DNA of 64,000 bases, from NCBI GenBank assembly GCA_000165425.1, contig CT868037.1, forward strand, positions 124,001 to 188,000, written 5' to 3'. The position numbers and the translations under genes were made by a program. The notes under the pieces are model-generated. The model ran no database searches. It saw nothing but the letters and a program-made list of their open reading frames with translations, and had not been told where the DNA came from. Shown here piece by piece: positions 19,190-54,594 of the stretch (its first letter is position 1; each line of letters starts with the position of its first letter). The stretch is from Paramecium tetraurelia (taxonomy: Eukaryota).

Positions 19190-20993
19190 ATGGAAGCATT
19201 TAGTGTAATTTTAATCGTCTTGATTGCTATTGTAATATTAGGCTTTATCATTTACCTCATAAAGATAAATATTACAAAAAAATAAAGCAATTAAAAATAT
19301 CAAATTAGCGAGAAAGGTGAAAAGGGATATATTAATCCTAAAGACTAATAAACCTAAAACAAAAATAATCAAAACAAAGAAAAAAATAATTAATTAGATT
19401 ACAAACATAATTCTGAGTTGAAAAAAAATGCGAATCCAAATAATCTTTAAAATAATAGATAACAAAATAATTTATAATAAGCAGATGAATTAAAATTATA
19501 ATCACAGAATATCACTCATGAATCACCAACATTAGAAAAGTTTGACTCTCAACTACCTATTTCATAAAATAATCAATAATAGAATTATCCAGAAATGCCA
19601 TTAGGTAATCAAAATGATTATTAATAATAAATTAACCAGAATTCACAATTATACAATAGTAAAAATGACTAAGAATAAAATATTGAAAATGATTTATTAT
19701 ATAAAAATAAGGATAATTAATTACAAAATAATCTAAATGGTTATTTAATTAATGAGGATAGCTAAGAACAAAATTAAGTTAATAATTAAATATTTAGGGA
19801 AAATTAATAACCAAATAATAAGGATGCAAATAGATCAAAAAATACTCAGGATAAAGATGAAGTAGTGATAAAAATATGGGGAGAAAGTTAAGAAAACACC
19901 GTGATCAATTAAGAGTATCATCCAAAAAAATAGATTCAATAAGTCATATCCTAAATCATTAATGATAACTAATAAGATAACACTCTTTCAAGTTTTAAAT
20001 CAAAACCTGAGCCTATACCTAAACCAGAGCCTGAGCCTATACTTTAACCCAAGCCTATACCCAAATCTAAGTATATACCCAAATCTAAGTATATACCCAA
20101 ATCTAAGTATATACCTAAATCTGAGTATATACCTAAACCTGAGCCTATACCTTAACCCGAGCCGATACCTGTACCTGATCCATTAAAGCGAATAATTGCT
20201 GAGACTTCTAAAAAACGAAAAGTAGCAGTTGAATATAAATATTATATCAGAAAATTTTAGAATAAATCAGAATTAAAAAAACATTATGGCCTAACATTAA
20301 AAGCAAGTGCAGAGTTATATAAATATTGCAATGCATTTAGAGAAGTAAGAGGAGATGGTAATTGCTTTTATACTGCTTTTGGATTTTAATTCTTATCTAT
20401 TTTACTATTTAAGTATTCCTTAGACTAATTTAATGATTTTTTTAATAAAATTAGACAAATTGAGTTGCCAATGAAAATATTTGTTCCTGGTACAAATTTA
20501 AAAATTGATGATAAAGAATTAGAAAAATAACTATTAAATGAATTTTAACGTAGAATAACTAAACTAAAACTTATAAAAGATATAAACTAAAGAGAAGAAT
20601 AATTTCGTACTGAATTTGCTGCCTATGAATAATAATCAGATGAAATAGATGGATGTTTATATGGATTATCAACTTTATTTTTTAGAAATTATTCTAATTA
20701 CGCTGTCGATTTTAGTGATGCCAAAGATGCAGTATATGATAGAGTAAACTTATTAAATTGGGAAGTAGAATGTAATAGCAATGAAGTTGTTATTGCAGAA
20801 TTAGCTAAACAATTAAATATGTACATATTTATTATCTATTATAAGTTTTGTTTAATTAATTTATATAAAAAATAAAGAAAATGTAGTCATTAGGAATTAT
20901 GGAATCAATGAACATCATAAAATTATATTATTAGAGCAGCCTGGACATTATAACATTGGTTATTTTTAATCCGAAAATAACCTGAATTAATGA
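19190..20993 (+). CDS. Membrane-anchored otubain-like (peptidase C65/OTU) deubiquitinase, copy A (~592 aa)
   Basis: N-terminal TM (FSVILIVLIAIVILGFIIYLI), N/Q-rich linker, Pro-rich repeats, FREVRGDGNCFY and PGHYNIGY motifs; 25-nt intron at 20821-20845. Confidence 0.85.
20000..20182 (+). repeat. 18-nt coding minisatellite (PKPEPI/PKSKYI hexapeptides)
   Basis: Tandem units such as cctaaacctgagcctata and cccaaatctaagtatata. Confidence 0.9.
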
Positions 20994-22083
20994 TTTATTA
21001 ATTAAATAATTAATTAAATATTTTTTATATTATATTTATTTTTACTTTCTTCTTATATATATTTGTTAATTGCATATTATAATATTATTATCTGCAATAT
21101 TTAAATTATGTAACTCTATAAATGTGTTTTATAGGTATAACAAAAACCTTCAGAATGGTATAATTGAAAGAAGTAAAGTTTTTTGAGAAAAGAATGTGTT
21201 GGCAGGATAACGGAATGTAAGAAATATATTTTGTTAGGTAAGAGTTCATTTTTTAAACCAAGGAATTAGGAGTAAAAATAACAATTAAATATTAGGATTC
21301 ATTGTTAACATGTCTTTGAATTTAAATGATATTTTTTTATTAGTTCATTTAATTTTCTCAATTAGTGTACCTTGATATAGCTTTTAAGGTATGATTTTAT
21401 TCTTTCAAGTCATACAAAATTACATTCTCATCGTACTTAGTGGTTTTTATAAGAAAAAGAGTTTAGTAGTAAATTCTTATAATTTAATATTTCATAGGAA
21501 AATATTAATAAATAAATAACTTTAGGAATAATATTAATCATAGTAAATCTTTAAATGTATAATGTAAAAAATTATACATTATTTCTCTTAAATGAATATT
21601 ATTAAAAGAGAAGTAAGATCTCTAAAAATCTTTTTAATTCAGAATTGTAGATATATTAAAAAATTAATTCTCTTTAAATGAAACTAAATATGAAAAGCCT
21701 TCAATTATATTATAATCTTCGATTTAATTAATTATAATTAATAGTGTATTAGAATAATGAGTGACTTATTTCGAAATTGTTATTTATTAGAAATCTACAG
21801 CAATTTTTAAAAGAAATTACAACCAAAAAATTTAAAGAAAGAGAAGGATTCTATTAAATTGAATACTTCAAAGGGTATCTTATTTAATAATGTAATGTTT
21901 AAATAATATCAAAATTGATTTTTCTTTTTTAAGGTAAAAAATAATTCTATTAAAATATTTTAAGAGATAAGTCATAAAAGAGAACGGAATAATGATTAAT
22001 ATATGTCAAAAATTTCGAATCCACTATCTGATTGAGAATAAAAATATTATTTTTTAAGATAATTATTTAAAATAATATATATA

Positions 22084-23882: not shown

Positions 23883-23933
23883 AGTTCAATACCTATTAAA
23901 TAATTGAATTTTACATTATTATTATTTATAAAA

Positions 23934-25171: not shown

Positions 25172-25201
25172 TTATTAAAAATTTAAAATAAATTTCAATA
25201 A

Positions 25202-28854: not shown

Positions 28855-29303
28855 TCACTTTCCTTTTCTGCTTTGTCTTTCAGCTCTTCTTTTTTTCCAC
28901 AATTAAGCACCTAGCGGAGAAGCTATTTCTTCTGGAATTTGTGGATTTTGTTAGATGAAGTCTATGACCTTTTTTGCTTCTGCATGGTTGAATTGGTAAT
29001 CAAGAACTTGTTAGCACTCGTCATTAGTATCAGCTACTTGTTGTTGAATAGCTTACATTTCATATCGACATCTTTGGAGAGAAGAATGAGTTAATCCTGC
29101 AACTTGGTCTCTGTAATTCTTTTTTGATTGTAGTCATCAATAAGCTCGAAAATATACCTATCATCCAAAATGACAAGCTATGTAATGCTAGATGGGATTA
29201 CTTTTTTGAGTGCTCTTCTTTCGATATCATTAATTCTCTTATTTCTGGACAAGGCGCAAATCTCGTAATAGAGTTGTGAGGTGGGTAGATGCAAATTTTA
29301 CAT
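28855..29303 (-). CDS. Small hypothetical protein (~134 aa, 2 introns)
   Basis: MQNLHLPTSQLYYEIC...IASPLGAQLWKKRR; canonical tiny introns restore the frame. Confidence 0.6.
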
Positions 29304-29466
29304 TAATTAATAATGTATGGTTGAATGGTTGTGTTGGTTTTTTCACAAATAAAGGATAGAGTTCTGATGTTATAATATCAAAATCAGTACTTAATTGCCT
29401 TATCGAATCAATGGCAGAAAAGGGGATCGGGGATTAAAATCCGTTTTTATTTTATAATTAAAAATT

Positions 29467-32400
29467 ATGACAAACAAAGTTGCTATCTTGCTGGTGCTTG
29501 TGGGGCTGATGAGCTGTATTTTTTGATTGTTATCTCTAGTTGCAAGTGCCTCTTTGATAAATGTGCAATCATTAGCTCAGATCGACGTAGAGAGTTATGG
29601 ATGTGACAAATCGAAGCTGTATGATGCCGAAGAAGGCCTCCAGAAACTCGGCGAGGCCCTTAATTTCGCCCAGACAGGAAAATTGGATCAAGACATAAAG
29701 GAATTGAGAGAATTACAAATGTTGGCAAGGAAAGGAATGGAAGAACAAGTGCAGGTTTCATTTGTTTAAGTTCACAATCTACAATACCTTTATATGTTGA
29801 AGCATAAATTTGATTCCTTGGCACTTATCGAAATGCCAAACTCATTTGCTCGTCCCCATATTGACGGAATGAAATCTTAAATTAACTTAGTATTGGCAGC
29901 TACCGACACCCAAACCAGAAAAGCCTGCTGCGAAATGTTGTTCAAAATGATTGAAGTTCTACTTCTAGACCTACTCGAATTGGAAGAAGAATGCTAGAAG
30001 CCCATCACAATCAACATCGAAGGAGAAATCAGAAAAATCCAAATCATCAGAGGACATTGTGATAATACACCCACTCCAGAATAACCACCAGTCATCCCTG
30101 TTGATCCCATACCAATCAAACCCAAGGATCCAACTCCTACCATTGTCATCCCTCCTAAACCAAGGGATCCAACTCCAACCATTGTAATCCCTCCAAAACC
30201 AAGGGATCCTACGCCCAAACCAGGAGACCCAACTAAGCCTGAAGATCCAACTAAACCAAGAGATCCAACACCCAAACCAGGAGATCCAACACCCAAACCA
30301 GGAGATCCAACTAAACCAGGAGATCCAACTAAACCAGGAGATCCAACTAAACCAGGAGATCCATCTAAACCAGAAGACCCAACTAAGCCAGGAGATCCAA
30401 CTAAGCCAGGAGATCCTACTAAGCCAGGAGATCCTACTAAGCCAGGAGATCCAACTAAACCAGGAGATCCTACTAAACCAGGAGATCCAACTAAACCAGA
30501 AGATCCAACTAAACCTAAGGATCCAACTCCTAAGCCAAGAGACCCAACAGCTAAACCACCCCCTAAACCAAAAACACCAAGTCCAACTCCTTAAGTCGTT
30601 ATCGATTGTGTCAAGGGGGCTAATGTCGTAGGTGACATGAGTGCAAGCTCAGATTAAGCCATTGCTGATTCAGTAATTGAAGGTAAAGACATTGCTGGAG
30701 CCACTGATTATGGTTATGGTTTCTGGATAAGATGGTTGAGTAGATATCCAGATGAATTGGTCTCAGGAAGAACAAAAAACACCTATTACTTCGTATCCAG
30801 ATTGACAACCAATCAAAAGTTCAATGATGCAGAAATGGGAGATAGAGTTCTGGCCATCTGGCATTATGATACTGGTTTCCATTTCACTACATTAGACAAA
30901 GCATCTCGTAATCCAAACGTAAATCAAAACATCCCAACAGGAGACATTGAAGGATTGTGGAGCTACGTCTACTATTCATATAGTGGAAGATTAAAGAGGG
31001 CTGTTGGTTTATTGAAATTTGGAGCCAGTGGAAAAGTACAATAACTCTCCTTAGATGTTACTCACGATATCCCAACATATTTGAGATTAGTTATAGGAGG
31101 TAGATAGTTTAGTTATCCTGGATTCAATGGGTAATTCACTAATCCAGTCTTCAAGATTGGAGATGGAGCTTATGTTAATTCTGAATTGGAATTATTCGAT
31201 TACAATCTTAAATGCAATCCTTATCCAAAATTAGATTGTACTGAAAGAGCTAAACAAACCTTAATCCACAAGGCTGTTAGATACAATGTTAAGACTACAA
31301 AAGTACAAACAGTTAAAACTAGTCTTGAAACACCATTCCCTGAAGAATACTCAGTTAGTGGTTGGTTTAAATGGAAGTAAGTAGAGAATTAGGAGCCATG
31401 GCATTTGATGTTCAGAGTCTTTGCCACAAAAGAGAATAACAATGCCAAGAACTTAGGAGACAGAGATTTGGCAGCTTGGATTGGTACCGCAAATGATGGT
31501 ATTGTGTTGTTGTCCACTTATTCATATAATAACTTATTCGGAGAAGGTAACCCAAACATTATGAATCAAATCCAACACAAGAATAGAATTTAAGAATGGA
31601 CATTTGTGTACTTTGGATATTCATTTAAATAAAAGACTGCTCATTCCATCGTTCACTTCAAGGAGGCTAGAGAAGAGAGAACATTTGAGAATGTCAACCA
31701 TTTCTTAGTTTAAAGACTCTCAATCAATTTGGCAAAGGATGACCACTATCCTTCTTGGAACGGTATCATTGGCAAATTCAGAATTGATTTGTGTAATGGT
31801 GCTTATGATCCTAAATTCCCAAGAACTGCAACACCAGTTCCAAGTCCATCACCATTAGGTCCAACTCCACCACCTTCAAAGACTGTTGAACCACCCCCCA
31901 AGACTCCAACCATCAAACCACCTCCTAAACCAGTCAAACCACCCACACCAGAAGTTGTAGTGTCACCACCTCCTCCCATCATCAAAACACCAGAAGTTAT
32001 GCAAAAATGTATTGAAGGACAAGCTGCGATCGGAGATTCCTCTTCAGCACCAGATGTTAAGCCAGTTGCTGACATCTAAGTACCAGAAGAAGCCTTGAAG
32101 GATGTAACAGAATACGGTTATGGATTCTGGAGCAGATGGTTGACCAGACATCCAGAATAATTGTTTGAAGGAATGAGTGAACCATGGTATTTCGTATCAA
32201 GATTGACATCAAATGATCCATATGACAATATTAGAATGGGAGACAGATTGTTGGCAATCTTCTTGAGTAAAGATGGATACACATTCATCACAAATGATAA
32301 AGGAACATCTAATCCAAATCTCTATAAGTAATAACCATACAAAGATATTGAAGGCGTTTGGACATACATTCATTTCAGTTTCAGTCCATTGAAAAAGAAG

Positions 32401-35400
32401 GCTGTTGCTTTTGTTCATGCCAACAAATAAACCTCATAAATTGAATTGGCTGGAGTCACACATGAAGCTCCAAAGAAATTAAGATTCATCTTGGGAGGTA
32501 ACGATCTCAAACTCTATCCTGGATTCAATGGTTAATTCACAAGACCAGTATTGAAGATCGGTCCAGGTTCATTCATTGGTTCTCCTGAAGATGTTCAAAA
32601 GTATGCCTTATCATGCAACCCATTGCCAGAACCAGATTGCAAGAAGGGAAGAGGAGTCAGCAATTTGATTGAATCAACAAAAGAATTCAACAAGGGAAGC
32701 GAAGTCACCTTGTTTGTTGCTGATAATGAAAGACCATTCCCAGATAATTATGCCGTTGGAGGTTGGTTCTTGTGGACACCAACAGAATAGGAAGACTGGC
32801 ATTTAGCTTTCAGAGTTACAATTAATGGATAAAAACACAATAAGAATGATCAATTATTGGGAGACAGAGATCTCACAACCTTTTTTGAGCAAGTCAGGTA
32901 GTTATCACTTTGCTACCTATACCTACACTGATAACTTCGGTAAGGGAATTCCCAACAAGTACATTAACACTGAACATTAAAACAAACACACTGAATGGCA
33001 TTACATTTACATGGCATATTCAAGAGAGTAAAAGAGAGTATTGACCATTCTCTTCACAAAAGGAGATAGACAAGTCAAGTACATCGATGAAGTCAATCAT
33101 TATCTTGCTCCATTGTACAAGATCTTCTTAGGAAAGGATCAATTCTACCCAGCTTATAATGGTTATTTGGCTAATGTCCAATTCTTTGCATGTGAAAGTG
33201 CATATGATCCCGATTACAAACCCCCTGGATAACCAGAAGTACCAAAGTAACCTGAAGTTCCAGTTAAGCCACCTGAGCCATAAAAGGAACCAACATGTTT
33301 GAAGGGTGACACAACCATTGGTGATAGTGCTTTTGATTCATAAAAACCATTGGTAGATTTTGTGTTAGACAAACCAGAATAATTGTAAGATGTAAGAGAA
33401 TATGGATATCAATTCTGGATGAGATACATGACTCGTCACCCTGTCCCAATGTATCAAGGTAAGAGAGCTCCTTGGTATTTCGTTGCCAGATTATCAGGCA
33501 GAAAAGACTTTGAAGATGTTGGAAAAGGTGATAGATTATTGGCAATCTATTAAGGTCAATCAGAATATACATTCGCTACTAATGATCATAAGAATAACAA
33601 CTTCAATACAATTGCTGGTCGCTTTGAATTTGGAGATATTGAAGCAGTATGGACCTTTGTTCAATTCTCATATACTTCTGCAGGTAAAGTAGTTTCATGG
33701 ATTTAATATGACAATAGTGAACCAAAGACTTTTTCAGTTGCTGTTACACATGACAAACCTGAATATTTGGAATTTGTATTAGGAGGTACCCAAGGCAATA
33801 CCTATCCAGGATTCAATGGTCAATTCACATCTGTTGTTGTCAAAGTTGGATAAGGCTCATTCATAGAAACAGCCGAATAATTCCGTAAGTTTGCCATCAA
33901 TTGCAATCCTAAACCACTCCCAGTTTGTAATAAGGCTAAGGAAGTTGTGTTGATTGAGAAGTCCAAGAGATTTGAAGCTTAAAGCAGTGAAGTTAATGAA
34001 ATCACATCTCCAGAAGAGTAAGCATTCCCAGATGAATACTTCGTTAGTGGTTGGTTCAAATGGAGATCAACAGTCATGGAACCATGGCATTTAGCTATTC
34101 GTCTTCATCAAAATAAGGGTATGGAGAATGCCAATGCTGCCAAGTTGGGAGATAGAACCATAGGTGCATTCGTTGGAAACAATGGAAACTATGCAATCAC
34201 AACCTATACATACACTAACTTGAATGGTGAAGGTGATCCAAATAAATATGTTTAAGTGCCTTATAAGGATCAATTAGCCTAATGGCATTTTGTGTTCATC
34301 GGATACAGTAGAGCTAAGAGATAAGTTGTTGGTTTCTTGTAATGGAAGGACAGAAAGGAAAATATTAACTTAGAGAACATCAATCATTATCTAACCAATT
34401 CAGTTTATGTCAATGTAGGAAAGGATAGATTTTACCCAGCATTCAATGGACACATTGGATCATTGAAATTGTAATTATGCAGTGGAGCATTCACACCAGT
34501 ATTCCCAGAAGATCCTTAACCACCTTAGGTACCATCTACTCCACCTCCTCCCAAACCAGTTGACCCAACAAAACCAGGTGATCCTACTAAACCAAGTGAT
34601 CCAACTAAACCAGGTGATCCCTCAAGACCAGAAGATCCAGTTCAACCACCCAGACCTGCAGATCCTGAAATTGTCAGAAAGTGTGTTAGTGGTTAAGTTC
34701 AAATTGGAGATATGCCTTCCAGTGGTGATAAAGTTGTTGATCTCAAGGTCACTGAGGATAAATTGGGAAGTGCAATCGAATACGGATATGGATTTTGGAC
34801 CAGATGGCTCACAAGATGGCCAGATAATCTCATTAAAGGAGCCAGTGAACCATGGTATTTCATTTCTAGATTGACAAATAATGATCCATATGACAACATT
34901 AGAATGGGAGACAGATTATTGGCTATTTGGTTAGGTTAAGCTGGTTATACATTCATCACAAATGATGTTGCTTCAGGCAATCCTAATCTTAATAAATAAA
35001 TACCTTATGGAGATATTGAAGGTGTTTGGACCTATATTCATTTCAGTTATAAATCAGGATAAGCTGTTGGTGCTATTAGAATTGGAGACAAGACTCAATT
35101 CACAGTTCTTGATGCCAAACACGACTAACCTAAATTCTTGAGATTGATTGTCGGTGGTTCTGATCTCAAATAATATCCAGGATTCAATGGTCAAATCTCA
35201 TCACCAATTCTTAAATTAGGTGCTGGTTCATTTGTAAATACTGAAGATGATTTCAATAAATTCGTGTTAGCATGTAATCCAAGACCTGAACCAGATTGCA
35301 AGGGCAAGACTGAAAGCAAATTGATTGAGGGTATCAAGAAATATGAATCTACCCAACCAGATTTTTATGAACATGTTAGAGATGAGAAATCTCTCTTCCC

Positions 35401-37523
35401 AACTATGTATGGTATTGGAGGTTGGTACAAATGGGAACCAACAAAGTAGGAACCATGGCATTTAGCATTTAGAATTACAACAAATGATTAGAAGACCAAT
35501 AAGAATGCTGAAATATTGGGAGATAGAACACTTGCAGTTTGGTTAAGTGATCAATAATTGTATGCATTTGCCACATATACTTATACAAACATGTTTGGAG
35601 CTGGATAACCAAATGCAGCCTAAGTCATTAAACACTAAGATAAACACACTGAATGGCATTATATTACATTCTAATACAACAGAGAGACCAGAGAAGCATA
35701 TGGATCCATTGTGTTTAAGGATGGTAAATTAGATTTGAAATTCCCCAATACAAACCATTACTTGGTTCCAGTGTTGAGAATATTGATAGGAAAGGATCAA
35801 TTCTACCCAGCATTCAATGGATACATTGCTGATGTGATATTTGTTAATTGCCAAGATCCATACAATCCACAATTCACTCCAGGAAACCCACCTGAATTAC
35901 CAAAACCACCTGTTATTCCAGTTGAACCACCTTAGCCATTCCCAGAACCTAAATGCTAGATGGGTGACGAAACTGTTGTGGATTCTGCATTTGATGATTT
36001 CAAACCATTGGCTGATATTGAAGCAACTCCAGAGAATTTGAAGGACATCAGAGAATACGGATACTCATTTTGGGTTAGATATTTAAGCAGACATCCTAAA
36101 CCAATGTATTAGGGCAAGAGTGAACCATGGTATTTCATGAGTAGATTGACAGTCAATAAGGAATATTAGAATGTTGAGAAGGGAGACAGATTGTTGGCCA
36201 TCTGGTAAGGTCAAGGAGCTTACACATTTATTACCAATGATTATAAGACCAGTAATTGGAATGCAGCCAAGAACATTGAATATGGAGACATTGAAGGAGT
36301 TTGGACATATATTCATTTCAGTTACAGCAGTGTTACAAGTCAATCAGTTGGTTTTGTTAAGGTACACAGGCAAAGAACCATAATCAGTCACATTTGATGT
36401 CACTCATGATAAACCAACATTCTTAAGACTCGTCATCGGAGGATCAGATCTCAAATTGTATCCAGCCATCAATGGTCAATTAACAAGAGCTGTCTTTAAG
36501 ATTGGTGCTGGTGCTCATCTTGACACTGTTGATGAATTGAATAAGTTCGCATTGGCTTGCAATCCTCAACCTAAGGAAGTCTGCTCCAAGGCTGTTGAAT
36601 AAGTCCTCATTCAAGAATCCAAGAAGTTCGAATTAGCCAAGTCTACAGTGTTGGAAATCCCATCTGATCCTGAAGCTGCTTTCCCATCTGAATACAGTGT
36701 CTCTGGTTGGTTCAAGTGGAAGGAAACAACTATGGAATAATGGCATTTGGCCTTCCGTCTCCACATCAACAAGGAAGAAGCAAACAAGAATGCTGAGAGA
36801 TTGGGAGATAGAACATTGGCTGCCTGGGTTTCACCAGCTCAAGATGGTATTTACGCCTTTGCCACTTACACCTATAAGAATTTGAATGGAGCTGGAGAAC
36901 CAAATCTGGCCAAGGTCATCCCTCAAAAACAACAATAAACCAATTGGCATTTCATCTTCTATGCTTACAACAGAGATACCAGAAAGGCAGAGGGATACGT
37001 TCAATTCAAGGACAGAAAGGAAACCATACTCTTTGAAAATGTCAACCACTTCTTGGTGCCGTAAGTTTACTTGAACATTGGTAAAGATCGTTTCTATCCT
37101 TCATGGAATGGTCATATTGGTAAATTCAGAATGAATCTATGCGGTGGAGCCTCCAGACCTGTTTTCCCCAATGGTATTCTATTCTTTCTATTATCCCCTT
37201 AGATATTGATGTTCCTCCTCCCGTGACCCCAACTCCAAAACCACCTGTCTCTGAAACTAAAGAGTAATTTATATTTAATATCTTTTAGAATCTGTCTTAT
37301 CAACACTAAATTGGTAGAGGTTACCAAGAACAACGTCAAAGATGTTATCAAATAACTTGAAGCTCTTGAAAACTCAGAACCTACTGAAAAGACATGCTAT
37401 TGTACTGTCCCCAAGAAGGCCTCCATGTTTATTGAGCTCTATGGAGAAGAATTATCCAATCATGTCGACAACCCAGTCATTTAAAGATTAATAGCTCAAA
37501 ATCAGGTGCGTTTGAGGATATGA
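29467..37523 (+). CDS. Giant secreted protein (~2,650 aa) with 10 alternating LamG/ConA-lectin-like domains and Pro-rich linkers; one apparent +1 frameshift at 32881-32886
   Basis: Signal peptide MTNKVAILLVLVGLMSFASA; five repeats of a domain pair (A: EYGYGFWxRW..GDRLLAIW..DIEGVWTY..YPGFNGQ; B: FPxEYSVxGWFKW..WHLAFR..LGDR..ATYTY..GKDxFYPAFNG); introns near 29516, 37174 and 37264. Confidence 0.85.
30110..30560 (+). repeat. 18-nt coding tandem array (PGDPTK)n
   Basis: Over 15 units of ccaggagatccaactaaa-like sequence; smaller array at about 34560-34640. Confidence 0.95.
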
Positions 37524-37539
37524 TTTATCAAATTATGTA

Positions 37540-38181
37540 TCATTCTGCAAAAAAACATGCCTTACTCTAGTATTTCAGTTATTGGTATGTCTGATACTTC
37601 CCACCTTCATTCAGATCTGGCATAAAGCTCTATAACAAAGGACTCGATTGTTTCTTAGGAGCACTGATATGCCTAGTGAATTCACTCTATCTTAATCTCA
37701 TTGTTTAAGTCAATTATTATAATTTTGAATTATTTGATATTAAGTACTTAACACAGTCAGGTTGTGAATATTCTCTTCCGTATTTTCGTAATTAAGCTGG
37801 AAATGCTTAATCTGGATGGTCTTTCCAACTTTTTAAAGACACTTATCCCCCATCATTAATCGTTACAAAATAATCTCGACCTTTTCCATCTCCAAAATAA
37901 TGCTGAATTCTTTAATGCTAAGGCGGAAGCAATCCTCTGCTTCGAGAACTAGGTTATTACAATTCATAGTACTTTGTTGCACTTTTTGGAAAGATCATCT
38001 TTGTGTAATCCGCCTTCGGAGACAAATCTAGTGAACTAATCATCTTCTGAGATAATAAACCGCCATTTGTATGCCTTACATACTGATCCCTTAAAATCTT
38101 ATATTAATCTCACCTTCCAGTGCCGTCATTGTGATAATGAAAATGCTTCGCGTCAATCTTTGGATACTTATATTCTTGCAT
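37540..38181 (-). CDS. Small protein with two HYxxDGxGRDxx VxxxxGG repeats
   Basis: HYHNDGTGRDQYVRHTNGG and HYFGDGKGRDYFVTINDGG. Confidence 0.7.
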
Positions 38182-38237
38182 AAATTATATTAATACTCTT
38201 GATACCAATAGTTATATAAATATTTATATGTATATAC

Positions 38238-39274
38238 TCAATAACTTAACTTGTAATGGTTATCCAAACTATCAAATTTGAAATCCGTCATGAACTGATT
38301 CTTGAATGTATATGCTGCCTAACTACTGCCCCTATCTGTGAATCTGAATTCTTAGACTCGAATCCAACTATTCTCATTGCATTTTATGTAGAAATTGTTT
38401 TTGAATTGTTTGCTCTTTATTAACCACAATGTGCCATTCTCAGCTGCATTGAAATGCTTCAACTGCTCTATTTCTAAGTCGTTTGCTAATGTAATGTTCT
38501 CTAAGTAGAATTCCCTTTCTTAGTATTTCAATTTCAAACTATGGAAATTTGTCCCATAAATCCCTCTGTATTAGTTATATATCTTATTTGCTGTATTGTT
38601 GAAATCTGGCCTTAAATCAGCTTGAGTAATCTTTGGTGCCTTAGTTGTCTCACTAGCATTCTGACCCAATCTTTCAAATTTGTCAAGATTTGTAATGAAT
38701 TCTTCTACTGAATCCGCTGTCAATTATGATAATTTCTATGATAACTCCTTATATCTATCGACTGCAAGGATATCAATTTCTTTTCTTAACAGGATTGCAC
38801 CTGCATCAAATCTCTAGATATTCATTAATTACTACTTATTTTTTGAAATCTCAATAAATGACACACCAGTCTTCTATTCATCATTCATTATAGCCCTTTG
38901 AATCGGAGCTGCCCCTCTATACTTTGGCAATAAGGAAGGATGAATCACGTAAACTCCCTTATTAAAAATATCAATAATCTGACTTGGAATCATGTATCCA
39001 TAATTACAAACTATTCCAAGATCAGGTTTCTCCTGAATTTCTTAAACAAAGTTGTTAGTCTTGTCTGACAAATTTGGTTGATAAATTTCTTTATTTTTAC
39101 ACTATATTTACTAAATTGCTATTAAGCAGCATAATCTTTAATTTAATTTTTCTCCTTATGTGAATGGTTTGGCACTGTTATCAGACTCAATTTGGGATCA
39201 ATTGCTGCCAACTTATGCAACCTTTAAAAGATAGGCAAGGGAAACAATCCACTCCCAAAAAATATAGTTTTCAT
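38238..39274 (-). CDS. FMT: Methionyl-tRNA formyltransferase (mitochondrial)
   Basis: IFFGS, PDLGIVCNYG, IHPSLLPKYRGAAPIQRAIMN, FDAGAIL. Confidence 0.92.
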
Positions 39275-44014: not shown

Positions 44015-44037
44015 CTAATATTTAATATAATAAATAT

Positions 44038-45064
44038 ATGGGAGATGAATTAATTTTGAAAATTGTAGAAGTTAACCCTCCATCTTCAGAATCTGGCAGT
44101 AAAAATATCATCAAAGCCACTGGTGAATGGTATACTAGAGATAAAGAAGCTAAAATTGTGATTGATTTCGGGAATGCTTTAATATCACTAATTTCTATAT
44201 GTACTTTCATTTTAATTAATTAGAATAGAGAACTATCATGCAGATTAGGTTAATATAAGACTTAAAGGAGAAAACTCAGATGAAATTTATTATGACAAAG
44301 TAATTTGGAAAAAAAATGACGAATGGAATAAATTATAAAGTGTTGATATTGAACCATTCTCTTAAGAAATATATAATTAAATGATTGTTGAGGTGTTAAA
44401 TTACACCTAGAAGGATTATAAGGGATTAAAAAGAATTAGAGTTTATGGAGAACAAGACAAAGCAGTATATAACGAAAGGAAAAAAATTCGGAAACAACAG
44501 AAGAAAGAATAAAAAAATAAAGAGAAAGCTTCGAAAGAAACTTAAAATTAAGAAAAGAGTGACCAAAAGGATCTAGCAAAGAAAACTAAAATAGATGAAT
44601 CTTCAACTAAAAAAAATGAAAATTGGGAAAAATACAAAAAACCTTAAAATCAACAGAATAAAGAGCCTATTTTTATAGATACTAGAGAAAAATTGAAAAA
44701 TATTCACAAAGGGCTATCACCTATCAAAGAAGAAACTGAATAATTTGATTAGAAGGCTGTTCAAACTCCTAAACAACCTGAAGTATTTGAAAAACTAGGC
44801 ATTAACGTAAATGAAAGAAAAATGATTAGATTCAATTTCAATTAAATTGATAAGTAATTTTTAGAGTTGCATTAGGAATGTAATTTCCCATTCATATTTT
44901 TATAGTATAACAAACTTCAGGAATCGGAAAAGATAGGTAACTAAATTATGCTAATTTTGAAACCCACTGGCTTCAATGAATTTGAATATTTATTATATAT
45001 TGATTGTTTTAAGTAATTGATATTAGATTTCTCATACTCCTAATTCATTGAAAGATTTTACTGA
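44038..45064 (+). CDS. Hypothetical protein; N-terminal galactose-binding/XRCC1-N-like beta-sandwich followed by a charged region
   Basis: SKNII..GEW..IVIDFG....GLKRIRVYG pattern; tiny introns. Confidence 0.5.
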
Positions 45065-46480
45065 TTTGAAAAGTTGAGATACTTCATTAACTCTTGTAAA
45101 TTCTATACAAAATGCTTGTAGCTTATATATAATTATAGCAAACTTACTTCAGTCAGAAGATCTTTAATCACAATCGCCTTAGTTTTTAAAAAATGGCGTA
45201 TAAAAATGCTGACATATTTAACTATTTTCGTTTATGTTGATTTTTCCTATTTGATTGTATATTATAATTTACTTTAATATTATTACAATATTAAATACAA
45301 TAATACACATAATATGTAACGAAATCAGGAGGTATTTTCATAGAATAATTTATCATCGCAATTAATTCAATTGTAGCAGGAGTAACATCAATATTGATAA
45401 AAACATCCAAGTAACTTCAATTATTAAGTACACTTACTCTTAGAAATCAGATGACTTCACATTTTTGACTAAAAAAAGGAATACTAAGTTTGCATTATTT
45501 TCTATTAAATCAGGTAATTTTTATGTAGTAAAACCACAATTTTTTAATAAAAATTCATCATTTTATAAAAAGTCTTAAATCAACTATGCTATAAATTGTT
45601 ATGTACTTTGAATTCTTGATCACTGACTTAAGTACAACAAGCTTTCTATATAATTTCCTTTACCGAACTCAATTTATCACTGTTGATTTGAAGAGTATAA
45701 TTCCATTATATATTATTAAGCATGCAATTCTCATTCCAATAAAAATTATTTGAGTTAATGAGGGAAGGAATCGGTCTTAAGTAGTCAATTGAAAACTAAT
45801 CAGAATCTAAATTAAGCTTCTTTATTTTATCCATTAGTATAAAATGAAATATTTATTATTAAAATATATTTTAATCTATGTTTATTAGGTTATTCTACAA
45901 AAAGGTTTGAAATTCATCGGCCCTAACCTTTAAATTCAAAGTCGAGTTGAATCTATCTAAATTCATACTGTTATGGATAATTTAGCAAATTCAAAGACAT
46001 GTTAACAATGAATCCTAATATTTAAAAGTTTTATTTTTACTCTTAGCTCCTATCAAAGAATCTGTCCATTAACAACAGCATTAATTTCAAGTAAACTTGT
46101 AATCATGAGGCATTTCCAAAATAGAAAAATTCAATCTTTAATATTGTTTAAAGAATGTACTCTTATATTCTTCTACGATTCAATCTAAAATTAATATTGG
46201 TGCAAGTCAAATTTAATCAAAATACACTCTTAAATTGCATTCTCCTACTTACAAATTCTTATCTCAAAAACTTTACTTCTTTCAATTATATGGATAATTA
46301 AAAAATCATAATAATACCATTCTGAAAGTTTTTGTTATACATATAAAACACACTTATTGTGTTATATAATTTAAATATTGCAGATGATAACATTATAAAA
46401 TGCACTTAAAAAATATAATTAAGAAAAAGAGTCAAAATAAATATAAAAAACAAAATTTAATTAATTATTTAATAAATAAA

Positions 46481-49400
46481 TCAATATTAGTTTTCCTCTT
46501 CTTATTAATATTCTTACTTTTCTTTTAACTATTATTAATTGTTTAGTAATAATTATTCATTTTGATTTTAAGGTTGTTAATCATTGAAATTTAAGTTATT
46601 TTCGGATTAAAAATAGCCAATGTTATAATGTCCAGGCTTAATTAATAATATAATTTTATGATTTTTATTGATTCCATACTCCCTAATTACTATATTGTTA
46701 CTATTTTCTATAAAAATTAATTAAACAAAACTTATAATAGTTAATATATATGTACGTATTTAATTGCTTAGCTAATTCTGCAATAACAACTTCATTACTA
46801 TTACATTCTACTTCCCAATTTAATAAGTTTTCTCTATCATATACTGCATCTTTGGCATCACTAAAATCGACAACGTAATTAGAATAATTTCTAAAAAATA
46901 TAGTTGATAATCCATATAACAATCCATCTATTTCTTCTGATTATTTTTCATAGGCAGCAAATTCAGTACGAAATTATTCTTCTCTTTAATTTATATCTTC
47001 TATTAGTTTTAGTTTAGTCATTCTACGTTAAAATTCATTTAATAAGTATTTTTCTAATTCTTTATCATCAATTTTTAAATCTGTACCAGGAACAAATATT
47101 TTCATTGGCAACTCAATTTGTCTAATTTTATTAAAAAAATCATTAAATTAGTCTTAGGAATACTCAAATAGTAAAATAGATAAGAATTAAAATCCAAAAC
47201 TAGTGTAAAAGCAATTACCATCTCCTCTTACTTCTCTAAATGCATTGCAATTTTTATATAATTCTGCACTTGTTTTTAATGTTAGGCCATAATGTTTTCT
47301 CAATTCTAATTTATCCTAAAATCTTCTGATATAATATTTAAATTCGTCTTATATTTGTCTATTTTAAGAGGTCTCAGCAATTATATGCTTTAAAGTGTCT
47401 AATTCATTAATTCTATTCACAGGCTGAAGTATATTGATATCATTTGAATGTTGAGGTTGGTTTATATTTTATGGTATTTCAATTTGAACTTAATTTTCTT
47501 GACTATTATCTTGTCTATTTTCTGTTTCATTTATTTGCTAAAAATAGCCAATGTTATAATGTCCAGGCTTAATTAATAATATAATTTTATGATTTTTATT
47601 GATTCCATACTCCCTAATTACTATATTGTTACTATTTTCTATAAAAATTAATTAAACAAAACTTATAATAGTTAATATATATGTACGTATTTAATTGCTT
47701 AGCTAATTCTGCAATAACAACTTCATTACTATTACATTCTACTTCCCAATTTAATAAGTTTTCTCTATCATATACTGCATCTTTGGCATCACTAAAATCG
47801 ACAACGTAATTAGAATAATTTCTAAAAAATATAGTTGATAATCCATATAACAATCCATCTATTTCTTTTGATTATTTTTCATAGGCAGCAAATTCAGTAC
47901 GAAATTATTCTTCTCTTTAATTTGTATCTTCTATTAGTTTTAGTTTAGTCAGTCTACGTTAAAATTCATCTAATAAGTATTTTTCTATTTCTTTATCATC
48001 AATTTTTAACTCTGTACCAGGAACAAATATTTTCATTGGCAACTCAATTTGTCTAATTTTATTAAAAAAATCATTAAATTAGTCTAAGGAATACTCAAAT
48101 AGTAAAATAGATAAGAATTAAAATCCAAAACTAGTGTAAAAGCAATTACCATCTCCTCTTACTTCTCTAAATGCATTGCAATTTTTATATAATTCTGCAC
48201 TTGTTTTTAATGTTAGGCCATAATGTTTTTTCAATTCTAATTTATCCTAAAATCTTCTGATATAATATTGAAATTCATCTGCTACTTTTCGTTTTTTAGA
48301 AGTCTCAGCAATTATTCGCTGTATAAACTCTAATGGATCAGGTACAGGTATCGTCTCGGGTTAAGGATTAGGCTCGGGTTAAGGATTAGGCTCAGGTGGA
48401 AGTATAGGCTCAGGTGGAAGTATAGGCTCAGGTGGAAGTATAGGCTCAGGTTTAGGTATAGGCTCAGATTTAGGTATAGGCTCGGGTTAAAGTATATGTT
48501 CAGGTTAAAGTATAGGCTCAGGCTCTGGTTTAGGTATAGGCTCAGGTTTTGATTTAAAACTTGAAAGAGTGTTATCTTATTAGTTATCATTAATGATTTA
48601 GGATATGACTTATTGAATCTATTTTTTATGGATGATACTCTTAATTGATCATAGTGTTTTCTTAAATTTCTCGCCGTATTTTTATCACTATTTCATCTTT
48701 ATCCTGAGTATTTATTGATCTATTTGCATCCTTATTATTTGGTTATTAATTTTCCGTAAATATTTAATTATTATCTTAATTTTGTTCTTAGCTATCCTCA
48801 TTAATTAAATAACCATTTAGATTATTTTGTAATTGATTATCCTTATTTTTATATAATAAATCATTTTCAATATTTTATTCTTAGTCATTTTTACTATTGT
48901 ATAATTGTGAATTCTGGTTAATTTATTATTAATAATCATTTTGATTACCTAATGGCATTTCTGGATAATTCTATTATTGATTATTTTATGAAATGGGTTG
49001 AGAGTCAAACTTTTCTAATTTTGGTGATTCATGTGTGATATTCTGTGATTAATCATATATTTCAATTTTTAGTAAATTCTATTACCCTTTATCTCTTTTT
49101 TATTATACTTATTATGATTTTAATTCTTCTGGTTATTATAAATTATTTTGTTATCTATTATTTTAAAGATTATTTGGATTCACATTTATTTTTAAATCAT
49201 CATGAGAATTATTTTTGTAATTAACATATTATTAATTTTCTTGACTGCTCTTCCTTAATTTGCTTTATTTTTTTCATAAGTTTGAGTTTCTTATTTTTTA
49301 TCATAACAATAGATATCTAATTAATTTTTTGTTTCTTTGTTTTAGGTTTATTAAACTTTATGATTTATATCTTCCATTTCAGCTTTCTCGCCAATTAGAG

Positions 49401-49509
49401 GATCTTAATTGCTTTATTTTTTTGTATTACTGTTTTTTAAACAGTAAATGATAAAGCCTAAAACTACAATACCCACTATGATGATCAATATTATTAAAGA
49501 CGGTTCCAT
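46481..49509 (-). CDS. Membrane-anchored otubain-like deubiquitinase with two tandem OTU domains, copy B (~992 aa)
   Basis: TM N-terminus MEPSLIILIIIVGIVVLGFIIY; two GDGNCFY/PGHY domains 931 bp apart joined in frame; two identical 25-nt introns. Confidence 0.85.
48335..48552 (-). repeat. 18-nt coding minisatellite (PKPEPI/PPEPIL hexapeptides)
   Basis: Tandem units; homologous to 20000-20182 but with different unit composition. Confidence 0.9.
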
Positions 49510-52500
49510 TAACCAAATTCTATAACAAAAAAATTAATGATTTTAATTAAATTTATCAATTGTAATATTTGTTTTGTTTTGTTGTGCTTTTCAATATTTC
49601 ATATTCTCGAATAAAGGTTTGCAATTCATAAGATGTATCTTTCTTTTAAGGCTTCCTATTAAATGACTATTAATTCATTAAGGAAGTTCAAAACCATTTT
49701 TAGAAAAAATATTAATGAATAATAGAATTTAATTCTAGCGCATCCAAAAACTCATTAAGAGCAATGTTACATCCATTCTTTAGCAAAGAATGGATTGTGT
49801 TTTGTATTTATTTAGTCTACAGTTTCATTATCGGTACCAAGTATTGAATTGAGGTATCATGAAAAGACCATAATAGAAGCCTATTGCACTAGTTTAAATT
49901 GGTTAAGATACGCGAGAATTAATATCGTAAGTAAATCATCCTTTATTATTATTATTTAACACATTTAAGGGAATAATACACATTAATATATCATATCATT
50001 AATTTTACTTAATCTAGTTTAATGCTAGAATTTTATATTTTTATTTCTCTCATTTTTAGATATTATTGTATGTGTAAGTATACTTACACATAATTGAAGG
50101 CGGAGTCAAAATTATTATTGTGTGAGCTAATTTTATTGAATACTTTTTCCTAAATTCTATGTGCATTACTCATGCTGGGACTAAGAATATTATGATTATT
50201 GTATATTTTTATATTATTTAAATTGTCCCAGAATTTATCAGATTAATTTATCTTTATGGTGCTAAAACCCTAACACCATACAAAGAGCATTCATGCTTAC
50301 AGAGATTATTATATCATCCAAAATAACTCTAGTGGTGATATCCCATGCAGATGCATAAGGCTTGGTGCACACTGGATCGAATTTTCTATGATCCAGGAAG
50401 CCATCACCCACACCAAGAATTCAATTAAATACAAATAATAATTCATTCTTTATTAATTGCCATTAATGTGAACTCATCATTACTTATTATGATATTTTAA
50501 GGGATTTCTTCTATTTATAATCCTTGGAACAAAGTTTTCTGTTTAATCTTGAGCTAAATGATTGTAATCTTTTTATTATTTTTCTATATAGCTTGCTTGC
50601 TAAATTGGTAGTGATTGAGTATGCTAGGAAATTTATTTAAAGGTACAACTTTAACTTCTCCAAAGTTGGGGATGATTTGACTAAAATTAGTGTTCCATGA
50701 ATCATTCAAATTTGATGAATTATGTTCTTAAATATCTGAGAATCCGATATTATAAGACATCGGTTAGTGCTTAGTTATTCTTTCATGTGCTTAAATTATT
50801 AAAAGTAATCGGCTCTAGCTTTGGGAGCGGCAATGGGTTGTAGAATTTTAATCCTTATATTTAACCTAATATGTTTATAATATATTCCCGAACATTATTT
50901 ACATCAAATATCAATTCATTTAAATCATTGACAAAACAATTCATACAAACTTGTATGCTAATTTATTAATATTATCAGAAACCTTGGCTGAAGTATGGCT
51001 ATTAGCTAATTATTAATGAAACCTACAAACTTCTTGTTTATTCGTCAAAAATTCAATTTTTTTAGAGTTTATTTAAATTCCTGCAAGATTTAGTTACCAT
51101 ACCTAATAAATATACGATGATATAATATATCATTATAATAGTATTTATAGGAATATTTTTAATAGTCATTGATAAGAAACACATATGCTTGAGATCTTCT
51201 TATTTTTGGCTTTGACAATTCTCATATAGTTCGATTGCTATTTAATTTAAGAGAGTTTTTTGATTTTTCTTAATTCTTATTAAGCTCATAAGGTTTTGGT
51301 TAATATAAATTTCACAACAGTTCGATTGCTTTATAACAAGATAAATTAGATTATAAAAAATGTAGTGAACAATATCTCTGCTTGTGAACTGCTTAAGAAT
51401 ACTGGGCAAAATCCTCCTCCTTATGTATTTGTTGATCTGAATTTATTAAAGAAATTATGGAAAGGACTAGATTATATTGCTTATCTTGTTTTTTGTTGAC
51501 AAATTATGTGGGGTGCTATTGTTTAAAACATTGAAGTATAGTGGTTTTGAAGAAGATATATTCCAAATGCTATATCTTCTCTTTAAGGCAACACCTTTTC
51601 CAAACTATTCTTTCATATCTGACTGCTCCTTTTTGAATTTAACATACATATATCACAAAGTTGAATCAATTTATCTTGAATTAAATTTTTAATTATTTTT
51701 TTTTATTTTATCTCCTCTTTTAAATTTAAAATAAAGAAATATAATTTATGGCAATAATGTAATTTATAGAATTTTTTATCAGTAATAGAAATATTTTTCC
51801 ATTGTTGTTTTTGGTTATTTAATAGTCCAATTAAATTTGATTTATAATTTTGATTCTTATTAAGATATTAATACATTAAATCTCCAAGATAAATGACTTT
51901 TATTTCATCTTTCTTATAATTAGATAATATCAAAGTTATTACTTCTAAAAATTACTATGTTTTTAGTCTTTGTATCTAGAAAGAAATCTTGAATATTTTT
52001 ACTAATAATTTTATTATTGATTAAACTAATTATTATCATTAATCCAGATAGAAATTTTAAATTAGAATTTTGATAAGTAGATTTAAGATAATAAAAGATC
52101 TTGGTACTTATCTTTTATGAAACCTATTTGTAATTAAGAATCACATTTAAAAAATAATCAGATGATTTCTTTTTATATCTGAATTTATTGTATTTTTATT
52201 ATTTTATATTTATTTCCATTTCCAAAAGTAATTATTCAAAAAATTGTTAAACTCATACTAAAAGATCATGATCAATCAAATATTCTCAATGATTTTTTTC
52301 CTTAAATTATATCATATATACTTATAACAATTTATTCTTTTTGTATATCATTTCATTCATTAAAAATATTTTAGGAGAATTTATAATCTAACTAAAAATA
52401 AATCATCAATTTATTAGTTTTTGATTATTGTATAGGTATTACTATTATTTCTTTTAAAATCTATAAATTTTTGCAGCATTTAATATATTTTAATAGTCTT

Positions 52501-53193
52501 CGTACTTTTAATGGTATCCAATAATGATAATACTTTTAGCTAAATTAGGGAACTATCATGAAATTTATAATTGAAAAAAAAAGTAAATATCGACATCTGT
52601 GTTCCATAACGTTATAAACTCTTCAAACCAAATTTTGATCTACTGTAATGGATTAATTGTTTCAACATTAGGCAATTTAATATCAATATCATTAATAATT
52701 ATTTACTCTTTAATTTTATAGGTGAGTGATTGTTTAAAGATTATAATTTAATAAATTTGTTTTTGTTTTGATTTTCATTCTGACATATTTTTAAGAATAT
52801 ATGTCTGACTATTTTCTTTAGCTAATCATGTTTCTTCATTTACTTTATTATTTGAATTATTTTTCGGTATTTACCAATTATTAACATAAGTATTAATATG
52901 ACAAAATGTTTGATTGATTATTATTACAATACTAATTAATAAACATTTTGTATCTTTATTTAATATTTCCTAATATATATATATTTCTTCCTGCCTAACA
53001 ATAACTTGATATTAATTTATATTTAATTCTATTAAATTTATATAAAAAAATATATATTTTAGTTGGAAGAAGCAAATGAATAAGCTTTGTGAAAAATGGA
53101 AAAGGCATAGAATAAAATTAGTATATTAATATGTTGCAATTAGATGACTTGAAGATTGGTTACTATGAAAATTAAGAAAATATTAATTATATT

Positions 53194-54594
53194 TCACGTT
53201 AATGGTAATAATTAAAATCCTATTATTTTGAAAGCATCTTTTTACTTCAAAGTATTATTTTGTTTCAAAATGGCAATTTCACTATATAATTTTTCTATTT
53301 TTTCTTCTGCTTCTTGCAAAGTATTCTACTGATTATTGCCATACTCATAATCTTTCCAATTTATCCCCTTTAGTTAATTTAAGAATTAGATATATTAATC
53401 AATGATGGTATCTTGTAGATAATATCCAATATTATAATGTCCAGGCTTAATTAATAATATAATTTTATGAATTTTATTGATTCCATACTCCCTAATTACT
53501 ATATTGTTACTATTTTCTATAAAAATTAATTAAACAAAACTTATAATAGTTAATATATATGTACGTATTTAATTGTTTAGCTAATTCTGCAATAACAACT
53601 TCATTACTATTACATTCTTCTTCCCAATTTAATAATTTTTCTCTATCATATACTGCATCTTTGGCATCACTAAAATCTACAACGTAATTAGAATAATTTC
53701 TAAAAAATATAGTTGATAATCCATATAAACACCCATCTATTTCTTCTGATTATTGTTCATAGGCAGCAAATTCATTACTAAATTATTCTTCTCTTTAATT
53801 TATATCTTCGATTAGTTTTAGTTTAGTCATTCTACGTTAAAATTCATCTAATAGTTATTTTTCTATTTCTTTATCATCAATTTTTAAATTTGTATTAGGA
53901 ACAAATATTTTCATTGGCAACTCAATTTGTCTAATTTTATTAAAAAAATCATTAAATTAGTCTTAGGAATACTCAAATAGTAAAATAGATAAGAATTAAA
54001 ATCCAAAAGCAGTATAAAAGCAATTACCATCTCCTCTTACTTCTCTAAATGAATTGCAATTTTTATATAATTCTGCACTTGTTTTTAATGTTAAGCCATA
54101 ATTTTTTCTCAATTCTGATTTATCCTAAAATCTTCTAATATAATATTTCTAATTTTCATCAACAGCGCGTAATTTGGAAGAATAATCATAAATTTATTTA
54201 ATTTTATTTACACTCTATTAAACAATTTGTTATGATGTTTAATATATTAAGAGATTACCGCAAGATTTATGCTAATATTCTACCTGTTTTTACAGTTTTT
54301 GAAATTATTTAACAATATTTGACATTATTAACCGATTTTGATCCATCTAAACTGTACTCTAATTTTCTTGAATTGAAAGCTTCTATTCCTCATCTTATTA
54401 AAACTTATAATACATATCTTTTGATCCTCTAACAACTTTAATTGAATACCTTCATTTTCTTTTGGTTAAATTTTCGATTGCCCACATTTTTTTCCGTAAC
54501 AGAATAACAATAATAAAAATAACACAAGTATTAAAATGTACCACAATAAATAAGAAGGTTGTTCTGTCTCTTTCTCTGGCAAATCTTCGCTCAT
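53194..54594 (-). CDS. Membrane-anchored otubain-like deubiquitinase, copy C (~451 aa)
   Basis: Different TM N-terminus (LWYILILVLFLLLLFCY), FREVRGDGNCFY, KPGHYNIGY, helical tail; 20- and 25-nt introns. Confidence 0.82.

What the first reader, a model, noticed from the sequence alone, without database searches (positions are those of the whole stretch)
19190..54594. Locally expanded family of membrane-anchored otubain-type deubiquitinases (3 genes, 4 catalytic domains)
Seen in the sequence: three genes (19190-20993 +, 46481-49509 -, 53194-54594 -) each encode an N-terminal TM helix, a low-complexity linker and near-identical OTU domains. The Cys (GDGNCFY) and His (PGHY) motifs are intact and an intron position is shared. 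Established: otubains (peptidase C65) are typically soluble, low-copy enzymes. Inference: this is a young, diversifying family of membrane-tethered DUBs with swapped anchors (copy C has an unrelated N-terminus and tail), possibly acting on a specific organelle or in host-symbiont/pathogen conflict.
Basis: partly seen in the sequence, partly recalled or inferred. Interest (0 to 1): 0.8.

Follow-up and report, generated by a model that had tools for sequence, protein, structure and literature searches.

The report
Membrane-anchored, multi-domain Paramecium otubains
These three ciliate genes most likely encode ubiquitin-removing enzymes tied to a membrane, whose anchors are old but whose catalytic parts are repeatedly copied over one another and repeated one to four times depending on the species, an unusual variant of a well-known enzyme family.

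Summary
The three genes and four otubain (Pfam C65) domains are real: Cys/His motifs intact, predicted fold closest to OTUB1/2, one N-terminal hydrophobic helix each.

The reading 'young family with swapped anchors' is mostly inverted. The genome holds 23 related domain loci, and B- and C-type genes occur across the Paramecium aurelia complex. C's anchor and tail follow old orthology, and C sits where the whole-genome-duplication twin sits. The catalytic domains instead group by species (ortholog trees rejected, p-AU 0.003 or lower), which points to gene conversion limited to the domain. B-type proteins carry 1, 2, 2, 4 and 4 domains in five species. P. bursaria has its own tandem cluster.

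Most likely these are cytosol-facing deubiquitinases on signal anchors. Topology, activity and organelle are inferred. There is no significant positive selection and no data on symbiont conflict. Membrane OTU enzymes are known elsewhere; ten paper searches found no account of this clade. New variant of a known kind.

The parts
19190..20993 (+). Gene A: signal-anchor helix, 285-aa Q/N-rich linker with Pro-rich repeats, one otubain domain; 592 aa
19205..19261 (+). Gene A hydrophobic helix (aa 6-24), net charge -1 before, +4 after
   Evidence: hydropathy only
20213..20966 (+). Gene A otubain domain; Cys392 codon at 20363, His578 codon at 20946, Asn580
20821..20845 (+). 25-nt GT..AG intron of gene A, same position as in B1, B2, C and the ohnolog (28 nt there)
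   Evidence: no spliced read seen
20988..21323 (+). 3' flank of A, inverted copy of the 3' flank of B (45987-46486), 77-89% identity
46481..49509 (-). Gene B: signal-anchor helix, 348-aa linker, two tandem otubain domains; 991 aa once three bases absent from other runs (49247, 49243, 48622) are left out
49438..49494 (-). Gene B hydrophobic helix (aa 6-24)
47541..48294 (-). Gene B domain 1; Cys codon at 48144, His codon at 47561; intron 47662-47686
46610..47363 (-). Gene B domain 2; Cys codon at 47213, His codon at 46630; intron 46731-46755
53194..54594 (-). Gene C: different anchor, 78-aa linker, one otubain domain, 74-aa tail with predicted helices; 451 aa; introns 54394-54413 and 53540-53564; positional counterpart of the ohnolog on G000:C81
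54493..54549 (-). Gene C hydrophobic helix (aa 16-34), net charge -4 before, +2 after
53419..54172 (-). Gene C otubain domain; Cys185 codon at 54022, His371 codon at 53439; 94-99% DNA identity to B domain 2 with sharp edges
54717..56174 (-). Neighbouring PUB-domain gene; synteny marker for C (also beside the ohnolog, and merged with C in one P. sonneborni annotation)

Best explanation
A, B and C belong to a Paramecium-specific clade of otubain-type deubiquitinases. Each is a single-pass protein with an uncleaved N-terminal signal anchor (short N-end in the lumen or outside, the rest in the cytosol). A disordered tether of 80-350 residues holds one or more Cys-His-Asn otubain domains that remove ubiquitin from proteins on or near that membrane; tandem domains would raise local activity or avidity. 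History: C is the ancestral position (its twin from the last whole-genome duplication survives with one copy); B, and then A as an inverted copy of B, arose on this chromosome. Since then gene conversion has kept overwriting the catalytic domain, intron included, among the neighbours within each species, while anchors and tails diverged along old lines; unequal exchange changed B's domain number. Shown: family, motifs, fold model, hydrophobic helix, tree conflict, mosaic identity, domain counts in annotations, low sense-strand transcription of B and C. Inferred: topology, catalytic activity, substrate, organelle, order of duplications.
For: Pfam C65 over cut-off for 4 of 4 domains; model of C (pLDDT mostly above 85 over aa 121-380) matches OTUB1 at Z 19.4, rmsd 2.9, 216 aligned, OTULIN at Z 15.5 or less. 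25 of 74 clade proteins have a hydrophobic 19-mer of 2.0 or more before the domain; in 21 of the 25 the C-side is more positive, 4 tie, none is reversed. Domain tree groups by species with starred support for sonneborni B+C, primaurelia/pentaurelia, octaurelia and tetraurelia+octaurelia; AU test rejects C-orthologs as a clade (p 0.0002), tetC+octC (0.003), tetB+octB (4e-32). C's N-terminus and tail match octaurelia C (z 36 and 29-36) but not B (z under 3). dS among the window's domains 0.007-0.12 against 0.73-0.87 to the ohnolog. Identity steps: C vs B2 54-72% outside, 94-99% inside the domain; A vs B 72% over the first 200 nt, 95-100% in the linker; 328 identical bases between B1 and B2 across the intron. 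RNA lies in one orientation only, depth about 1-10 on B and 0.5-3 on C.
Against: No dedicated TM/signal-peptide predictor was available; AlphaFold confidence over the helix is low (33-45). The four window domains as one clade have weak support (80/55); A is the least homogenised. Orthologs were compared as proteins only, and 'same contig' in other species rests on equal contig lengths in the listing. No spliced read was seen and A was outside the laid stretch. The 48622 indel lies in a stretch shared with A, where DNA contigs are collapsed. The four identical domains of P. sonneborni P0023 could be inflated by assembly. dN/dS of 0.6-1.0 among copies also fits relaxed selection.
Confidence: 0.65

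Rival explanations
1. Largely neutral by-products: C is the functional gene; A and B are weakly expressed local duplicates under relaxed selection, kept alike and open by conversion that follows from proximity alone.
For: Low RNA depth; dN/dS 0.6-1.0 among copies; the twin scaffold does without A and B; gene conversion is reported as common in Paramecium paralogs (PMC10195154, passages).
Against: B-type genes with an intact anchor and open frame persist in five species spanning both aurelia subclades; anchors outside the converted tract stay hydrophobic with the same charge bias.
Confidence: 0.2
2. Conflict role: the enzymes sit on digestive-vacuole or symbiont-containing membranes and counter bacterial manipulation of ubiquitin; conversion spreads adaptive changes through all copies.
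For: Domain dN to the ohnolog (0.29) is the highest of the 21 frame rows listed for this region, others 0.006-0.27; dN/dS 0.34-0.40 against a reported genome average of 0.05 (PMC10195154); B1 vs B2 differ by 11 non-synonymous and 1 synonymous change; independent tandem cluster of 7 genes in symbiont-bearing P. bursaria; Legionella uses membrane-bound OTU enzymes on vacuoles (PMC7830128).
Against: B1/B2 excess is not significant (Fisher p 0.48); a neighbouring gene has dN/dS 0.30; no expression or localisation data link the genes to infection.
Confidence: 0.12
3. One reading: a young family in which one recent catalytic domain was attached to different, swapped anchors.
For: Domains 84-94% identical while C's ends are unrelated to A/B; P. 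primaurelia C-type P0006 lacks the C tail, which may be a crossover chimera.
Against: C's anchor and tail are shared with octaurelia and, more weakly, sonneborni and primaurelia; C is at the ancestral position beside the PUB gene; it would need the same anchors to be recruited independently in each species.
Confidence: 0.05
4. The helix is a cleaved signal peptide and the enzymes are secreted or luminal, or they act on another modifier (NEDD8, Atg8) or as OTUB1-like E2 inhibitors.
For: The helix is N-terminal and single; protist OTUs acting on NEDD8 or Atg8 are reported (PMC10038098, passages); a conserved helix precedes each domain (aa 115-130 in the model) near where OTUB1's N-terminal region aligns.
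Against: Neutral or acidic N-side and basic C-side in 21 of 25 proteins is the opposite of a typical signal peptide (rule recalled); ubiquitin conjugates are cytosolic or nuclear (established).
Confidence: 0.1

Closest known systems
Human OTUB1 / OTUB2 (peptidase C65)
   Same: Best sequence hits among solved structures (E 8e-7 to 1e-6) and best fold (Z 18-19.4); DGNCFY and PGHY motifs align.
   Different: About 19% identity in the structural alignment; N-terminal anchor and long tether; up to four tandem domains; Asn where OTUB1 has Asp after the His (OTUB2 has Asn, recalled); 23 loci per genome beside three higher-scoring canonical-type loci.
FAM105A/OTULINL (C101)
   Same: OTU fold (Z 13.9); reported at the ER and nuclear envelope (PMC10318531, passage).
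   Different: Inactive pseudo-enzyme of the OTULIN family; the window's proteins keep the catalytic residues and score as C65.
Toxoplasma OTU DUBs with predicted TM segments
   Same: Alveolate, expanded OTU set, long disordered regions, three members with predicted TM (PMC10038098, passages).
   Different: That paper counts one OTUB1 and puts the rest in the OTUD subfamily; which three carry TM I did not see. No tandem catalytic repeats in the passages read.
Legionella LotA and LotB/Ceg23
   Same: LotA has two OTU domains and is membrane-bound; LotB has a TM segment (PMC7830128, passages).
   Different: Bacterial effectors; LotA binds through PI3P and its two domains differ in role, LotB's TM is C-terminal; here a host gene with an N-terminal anchor and near-identical domains.
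Concerted evolution of Paramecium paralogs
   Same: Gene conversion is described as common between ohnologs (PMC10195154, passages).
   Different: Here it acts between local duplicates and is confined to one domain; the same paper says single-gene duplications are rare in these species.

Membership tests
Otubain / peptidase C65 (PF10275) | Profile score above the curated cut-off (24.3 bits) | tested here: met
   33.9, 37.2, 36.8, 36.4 bits for A, B1, B2, C first exons; 46.2 for whole C
Otubain / peptidase C65 (PF10275) | Catalytic Cys loop (D-x-x-C) and His-x-Asp/Asn in register with OTUB1 | tested here: met
   GDGNCFY and PGHYN in 4 of 4 domains; aligned to OTUB1 motifs
Otubain / peptidase C65 (PF10275) | OTUB-type fold rather than OTULIN or OTUD type | tested here: met
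   Predicted model: OTUB1/2 Z 16.5-19.4, OTULIN 14.2-15.5, OTUD 10.2 or less; a bacterial OTU (8cmr) ties at 18.1
Otubain / peptidase C65 (PF10275) | Isopeptidase activity on ubiquitin chains | not testable with these tools
   needs assay
OTUB1 proper | Lys48 preference and non-catalytic E2 inhibition through the N-terminal helix (recalled) | not testable with these tools
   a conserved helix precedes the domain but equivalence is not shown
OTUB1 proper | Orthology to canonical otubain | tested here: inconclusive
   Canonical-type loci scoring higher on PF10275 exist elsewhere in the genome, and the clade is set apart by long branches in a fast tree that did not include those loci
Single-pass signal-anchor (type III) membrane protein | One N-terminal hydrophobic helix of about 19-23 residues | tested here: met
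   hydropathy 3.51, 3.33, 2.72, next best 1.5; helix 15-33 in the model at low confidence
Single-pass signal-anchor (type III) membrane protein | Uncleaved, C-terminal side in the cytosol | tested here: inconclusive
   charge bias fits in 21 of 25; no cleavage predictor or experiment
OTULIN/FAM105 (C101) | PF16218 profile match | tested here: not met
   no PF16218 hit at E up to 0.1 for any of the domain-bearing proteins scanned
Concerted evolution by gene conversion | Paralogs within a species closer than orthologs over a bounded tract, flanks keeping orthology | tested here: met
   cross-species part at protein level only

The most novel reading that the evidence does not exclude
Paramecium keeps a set of fixed membrane addresses (old anchors and tethers) loaded with an exchangeable otubain cassette. 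Conversion spreads each new catalytic version to all addresses and unequal exchange tunes the number of active sites per chain (1-4), as a host-side answer to bacteria that rewrite ubiquitin on vacuole membranes, a eukaryotic mirror of Legionella LotA/LotB.
Probability: 0.12. Interest if true: 0.75.

Novelty: new variant of a known kind. Interest (0 to 1): 0.48.

Why it matters
Otubains are known as soluble enzymes with one or two copies per genome. A clade of about twenty, a third of them with membrane anchors and some with up to four catalytic domains in a row, widens what this family can look like and offers natural constructs for asking how tethering and repeated active sites change ubiquitin-chain editing. 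The locus is also a clean example of domain-limited concerted evolution that makes old genes look young, and shows a real gene hidden by three extra bases in a reference assembly.

Tried and rejected
Introns as the cause of B's frame changes: no GT..AG stretch of the right length and phase by inspection; other runs show missing bases instead. B as a pseudogene: rejected for the runs laid; a true broken allele in the assembled strain cannot be excluded. Remnants of A or B N-termini on the twin scaffold: none by tblastn at E 0.01 over C81:70001-170000. Positive selection: not significant. TM otubains as widespread: 2 of 57 unlabelled hits outside the clade reached hydropathy 2.0 (only the best 150 of 541 hits were listed, 74 had enough sequence before the motif, many are fragments), so not supported but not excluded. 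Close relatives outside Paramecium: one search gave 57 proteins, 55 named Paramecium and 2 unnamed weak hits; weak evidence of absence. Papers: Paramecium + otubain 0 hits; six gene-identifier forms of four family members 0 hits; searches listed nothing on this clade by title or abstract start; subscription papers are not covered. Symbiont transcriptome PMC13134042: the held supplement is cut, no otubain rows were found and the differential-expression table was not seen; it may bear on the conflict reading. Earlier scan notes: none. Atlas feature search with C gave no usable hit. No complex prediction was run: enzyme-substrate jobs are uninformative and the PUB neighbour is only a neighbour. 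The large gene at 28.9-38.5 kb was not identified.
Full report
Observation. A six-frame translation under code 6 finds four GDGNCFY and four PGHYN motifs, in the three genes named. Gene A (19190-20993, +) gives 592 aa after removal of a 25-nt intron; gene C (54594-53194, -) gives 451 aa after removal of a 20-nt and a 25-nt intron, identical to database protein P0003, labelled Paramecium tetraurelia. All four domains pass the Pfam Peptidase_C65 cut-off. A model of C (mean pLDDT 72, mostly above 85 over residues 121-380) matches OTUB1 at Z 19.4, rmsd 2.9 over 216 residues; OTUB2 and a bacterial OTU are nearly tied, OTULIN reaches 15.5, OTULINL 13.9. Each gene has one strongly hydrophobic 19-mer near the N-terminus (3.51, 3.33, 2.72; next best about 1.5), followed by a linker of 285, 348 or 78 aa with about 30% Gln+Asn.

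Gene B. In the window's letters the frame from the ATG stops at codon 110 and two frame changes are needed to reach the domains. Four public runs were laid on 45600-56400. Both DNA runs lack one base at 49243 and one at 49247, each in a single contig at single-copy depth; no RNA covers that spot. At 48622 one base is missing in 12 of 16 RNA reads of X23 and 2 of 7 of X24; 0 of 13 X23 reads show the A-type deletion at 48628, so these reads come from B. The DNA contigs there are collapsed with A and are less telling. Leaving out the three bases gives 991 aa without a stop, and the repaired stretch reads like the P. octaurelia protein P0001. Assembly error is the likeliest cause; a strain difference is not excluded. 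RNA lies in one orientation only, as expected for minus-strand genes in the common stranded protocol, at depth about 1-10 on B and 0.5-3 on C from 1.1-1.3 billion letters: expressed, but weakly. No spliced read was listed. A lay outside the stretch and was not tested.

Size of the family. The A domain has 25 matches in the own genome, 23 loci after merging two split pairs; two of them have Asn in place of the catalytic Cys. Three other loci score higher on the Pfam model and look like canonical otubains. Protein searches gave 21 and 57 hits; of the 57, 54 are from P. aurelia species, one from P. bursaria, two are unnamed and weak. P. bursaria has seven related genes on one contig, three with a hydrophobic segment of 2.0 or more. 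Over the clade, 25 of 74 proteins examined (75 given, one without the motif; seven placed by tree only, species not looked up) have such a segment before the domain; in 21 the C-side is more positive, 4 tie, none is reversed. Among 57 unlabelled, more distant hits only 2 reach 2.0 (best 150 of 541 listed, many fragments). Anchored members are scattered over several subclades of a fast tree (that tree mislabels P0006 as unanchored and left out the Cys-less rows).

History of the locus. G000:C81 is colinear with the window, the twin from the last whole-genome duplication, and carries one otubain gene in this interval, at C's place beside the twin of the PUB-domain gene; nothing matches at A's or B's place. 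That twin (P0011) is also anchored and has the shared intron. B-type and C-type proteins occur together, on contigs of equal listed length, in P. octaurelia, P. primaurelia and P. sonneborni. B-type proteins have 2 domains in the window and in octaurelia, 4 in primaurelia (P0022) and sonneborni (P0023), and 1 in pentaurelia (P0005, with a repeated linker instead). C's N-terminus and tail match octaurelia C strongly (shuffle z 36 and 29-36), primaurelia C (N-terminus z 4-6, tail absent) and sonneborni C (tail z 6, N-terminus z 2) weakly, and B not at all. The domains behave the other way. In a 28-row tree they group by species, while the twin gene gives one copy per species. Trees that hold orthologs together are rejected: all C types p-AU 0.0002, tetraurelia+octaurelia C 0.003, tetraurelia+octaurelia B 4e-32; the four window domains form a clade with weak support (80/55). 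Within the window dS is 0.007 (B1-B2) to 0.12, against 0.73-0.87 to the twin. Identity has sharp steps: C against B2 is 54-72% outside and 94-99% inside the domain; A against B is 72% over the first 200 nt and 95-100% in the linker; B1 and B2 share 328 identical bases across the intron. This is the pattern of gene conversion: old anchors, overwritten domain. A is an inverted copy of B with its 3' flank; whether it predates the tetraurelia-octaurelia split is open, since each species' A resembles its own B most.

Selection. dN/dS is 0.34-0.40 against the twin and 0.6-1.0 among copies, with 11 non-synonymous and 1 synonymous change between B1 and B2 (Fisher p 0.48). The domain's dN to its twin, 0.29, is the highest among 21 listed frame rows in the region (others 0.006-0.27; rows with ratio 0.6 or more were not printed and some rows are non-coding frames); a published average for twins is 0.05 (PMC10195154, passages). 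So the domain evolves fast, but neither adaptation nor relaxation is shown.

Mechanism. Most likely (0.65) these are single-pass signal-anchor proteins with the domain in the cytosol, trimming ubiquitin from membrane proteins within reach of the tether, with tandem domains adding local activity. Family, motifs, fold, hydrophobic helix and charge bias are shown; topology, activity, substrate and compartment are inferred. Rivals: near-neutral duplicates (0.2), symbiont or pathogen conflict (0.12), secreted enzyme or other modifier (0.1), young family with swapped anchors (0.05).

What is known. Membrane-associated OTU proteins are in print: three Toxoplasma OTUs with predicted TM (PMC10038098, passages), the inactive ER protein OTULINL (PMC10318531, passages), Legionella LotB with a TM and LotA with two OTU domains (PMC7830128, passages). 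Databases already label these Paramecium proteins as OTU-domain proteins. Ten searches of the open library found no paper on the clade (listings only, except the five papers cited by passage); subscription papers are not covered. In the Megaera infection study (PMC13134042, passages and a cut supplement) the expression table could not be seen.

Verdict. Real, a member of peptidase C65 by profile, motifs and fold, and a new variant of a known kind: anchored, apparently active otubains with a species-variable number of tandem domains under domain-limited concerted evolution. Interest 0.48; 0.75 if the conflict reading (probability 0.12) proves true.

Noticed in passing
window 28885-38462 (+): A large GC-rich gene (open frames 29527-32931 and 32669-36397) with internal repeats of several hundred residues, Pro-rich spacers and no Pfam hit at E 0.1; 80-93% DNA identity to its twin on C81. 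Looks like a conserved secreted repeat protein; not identified.
   Followed up: partly
window 54717-56174 (-): PUB-domain gene directly upstream of C, also beside the twin gene and merged with C in a P. sonneborni annotation (P0008). PUB domains bind p97 and OTULIN in animals (recalled); probably plain synteny.
   Followed up: partly
G000:C546:1586-2086 (L021) and G000:C3:149437-149937 (L022): Two clade members with Asn in place of the catalytic Cys, with similar proteins in other aurelia species (P0044, P0047, P0049, P0050, P0052): a conserved pseudo-deubiquitinase subfamily.
   Followed up: no
G000:C81:150145-151746 (L008, L024); C291:36642-48629; C40:130457-139348: Further local groups of two or three otubain domains of the same clade, more diverged from each other than those of the window.
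   Followed up: no
window 48641: A fourth difference between the window and other runs in gene B (9 of 9 RNA reads in X23, 3 of 4 in X24, one DNA contig), synonymous and not from gene A.
   Followed up: partly
P. bursaria proteins P0073, P0075, P0078, P0079, P0192-P0194: Seven related otubain genes on one 172,924-base contig, an independent tandem cluster, three with a hydrophobic segment; P0075 lacks the Cys motif pattern.
   Followed up: partly
window 49932-51736 (-): Transcribed region between B and C (RNA depth up to 2.8) with no match on the twin scaffold.
   Followed up: no
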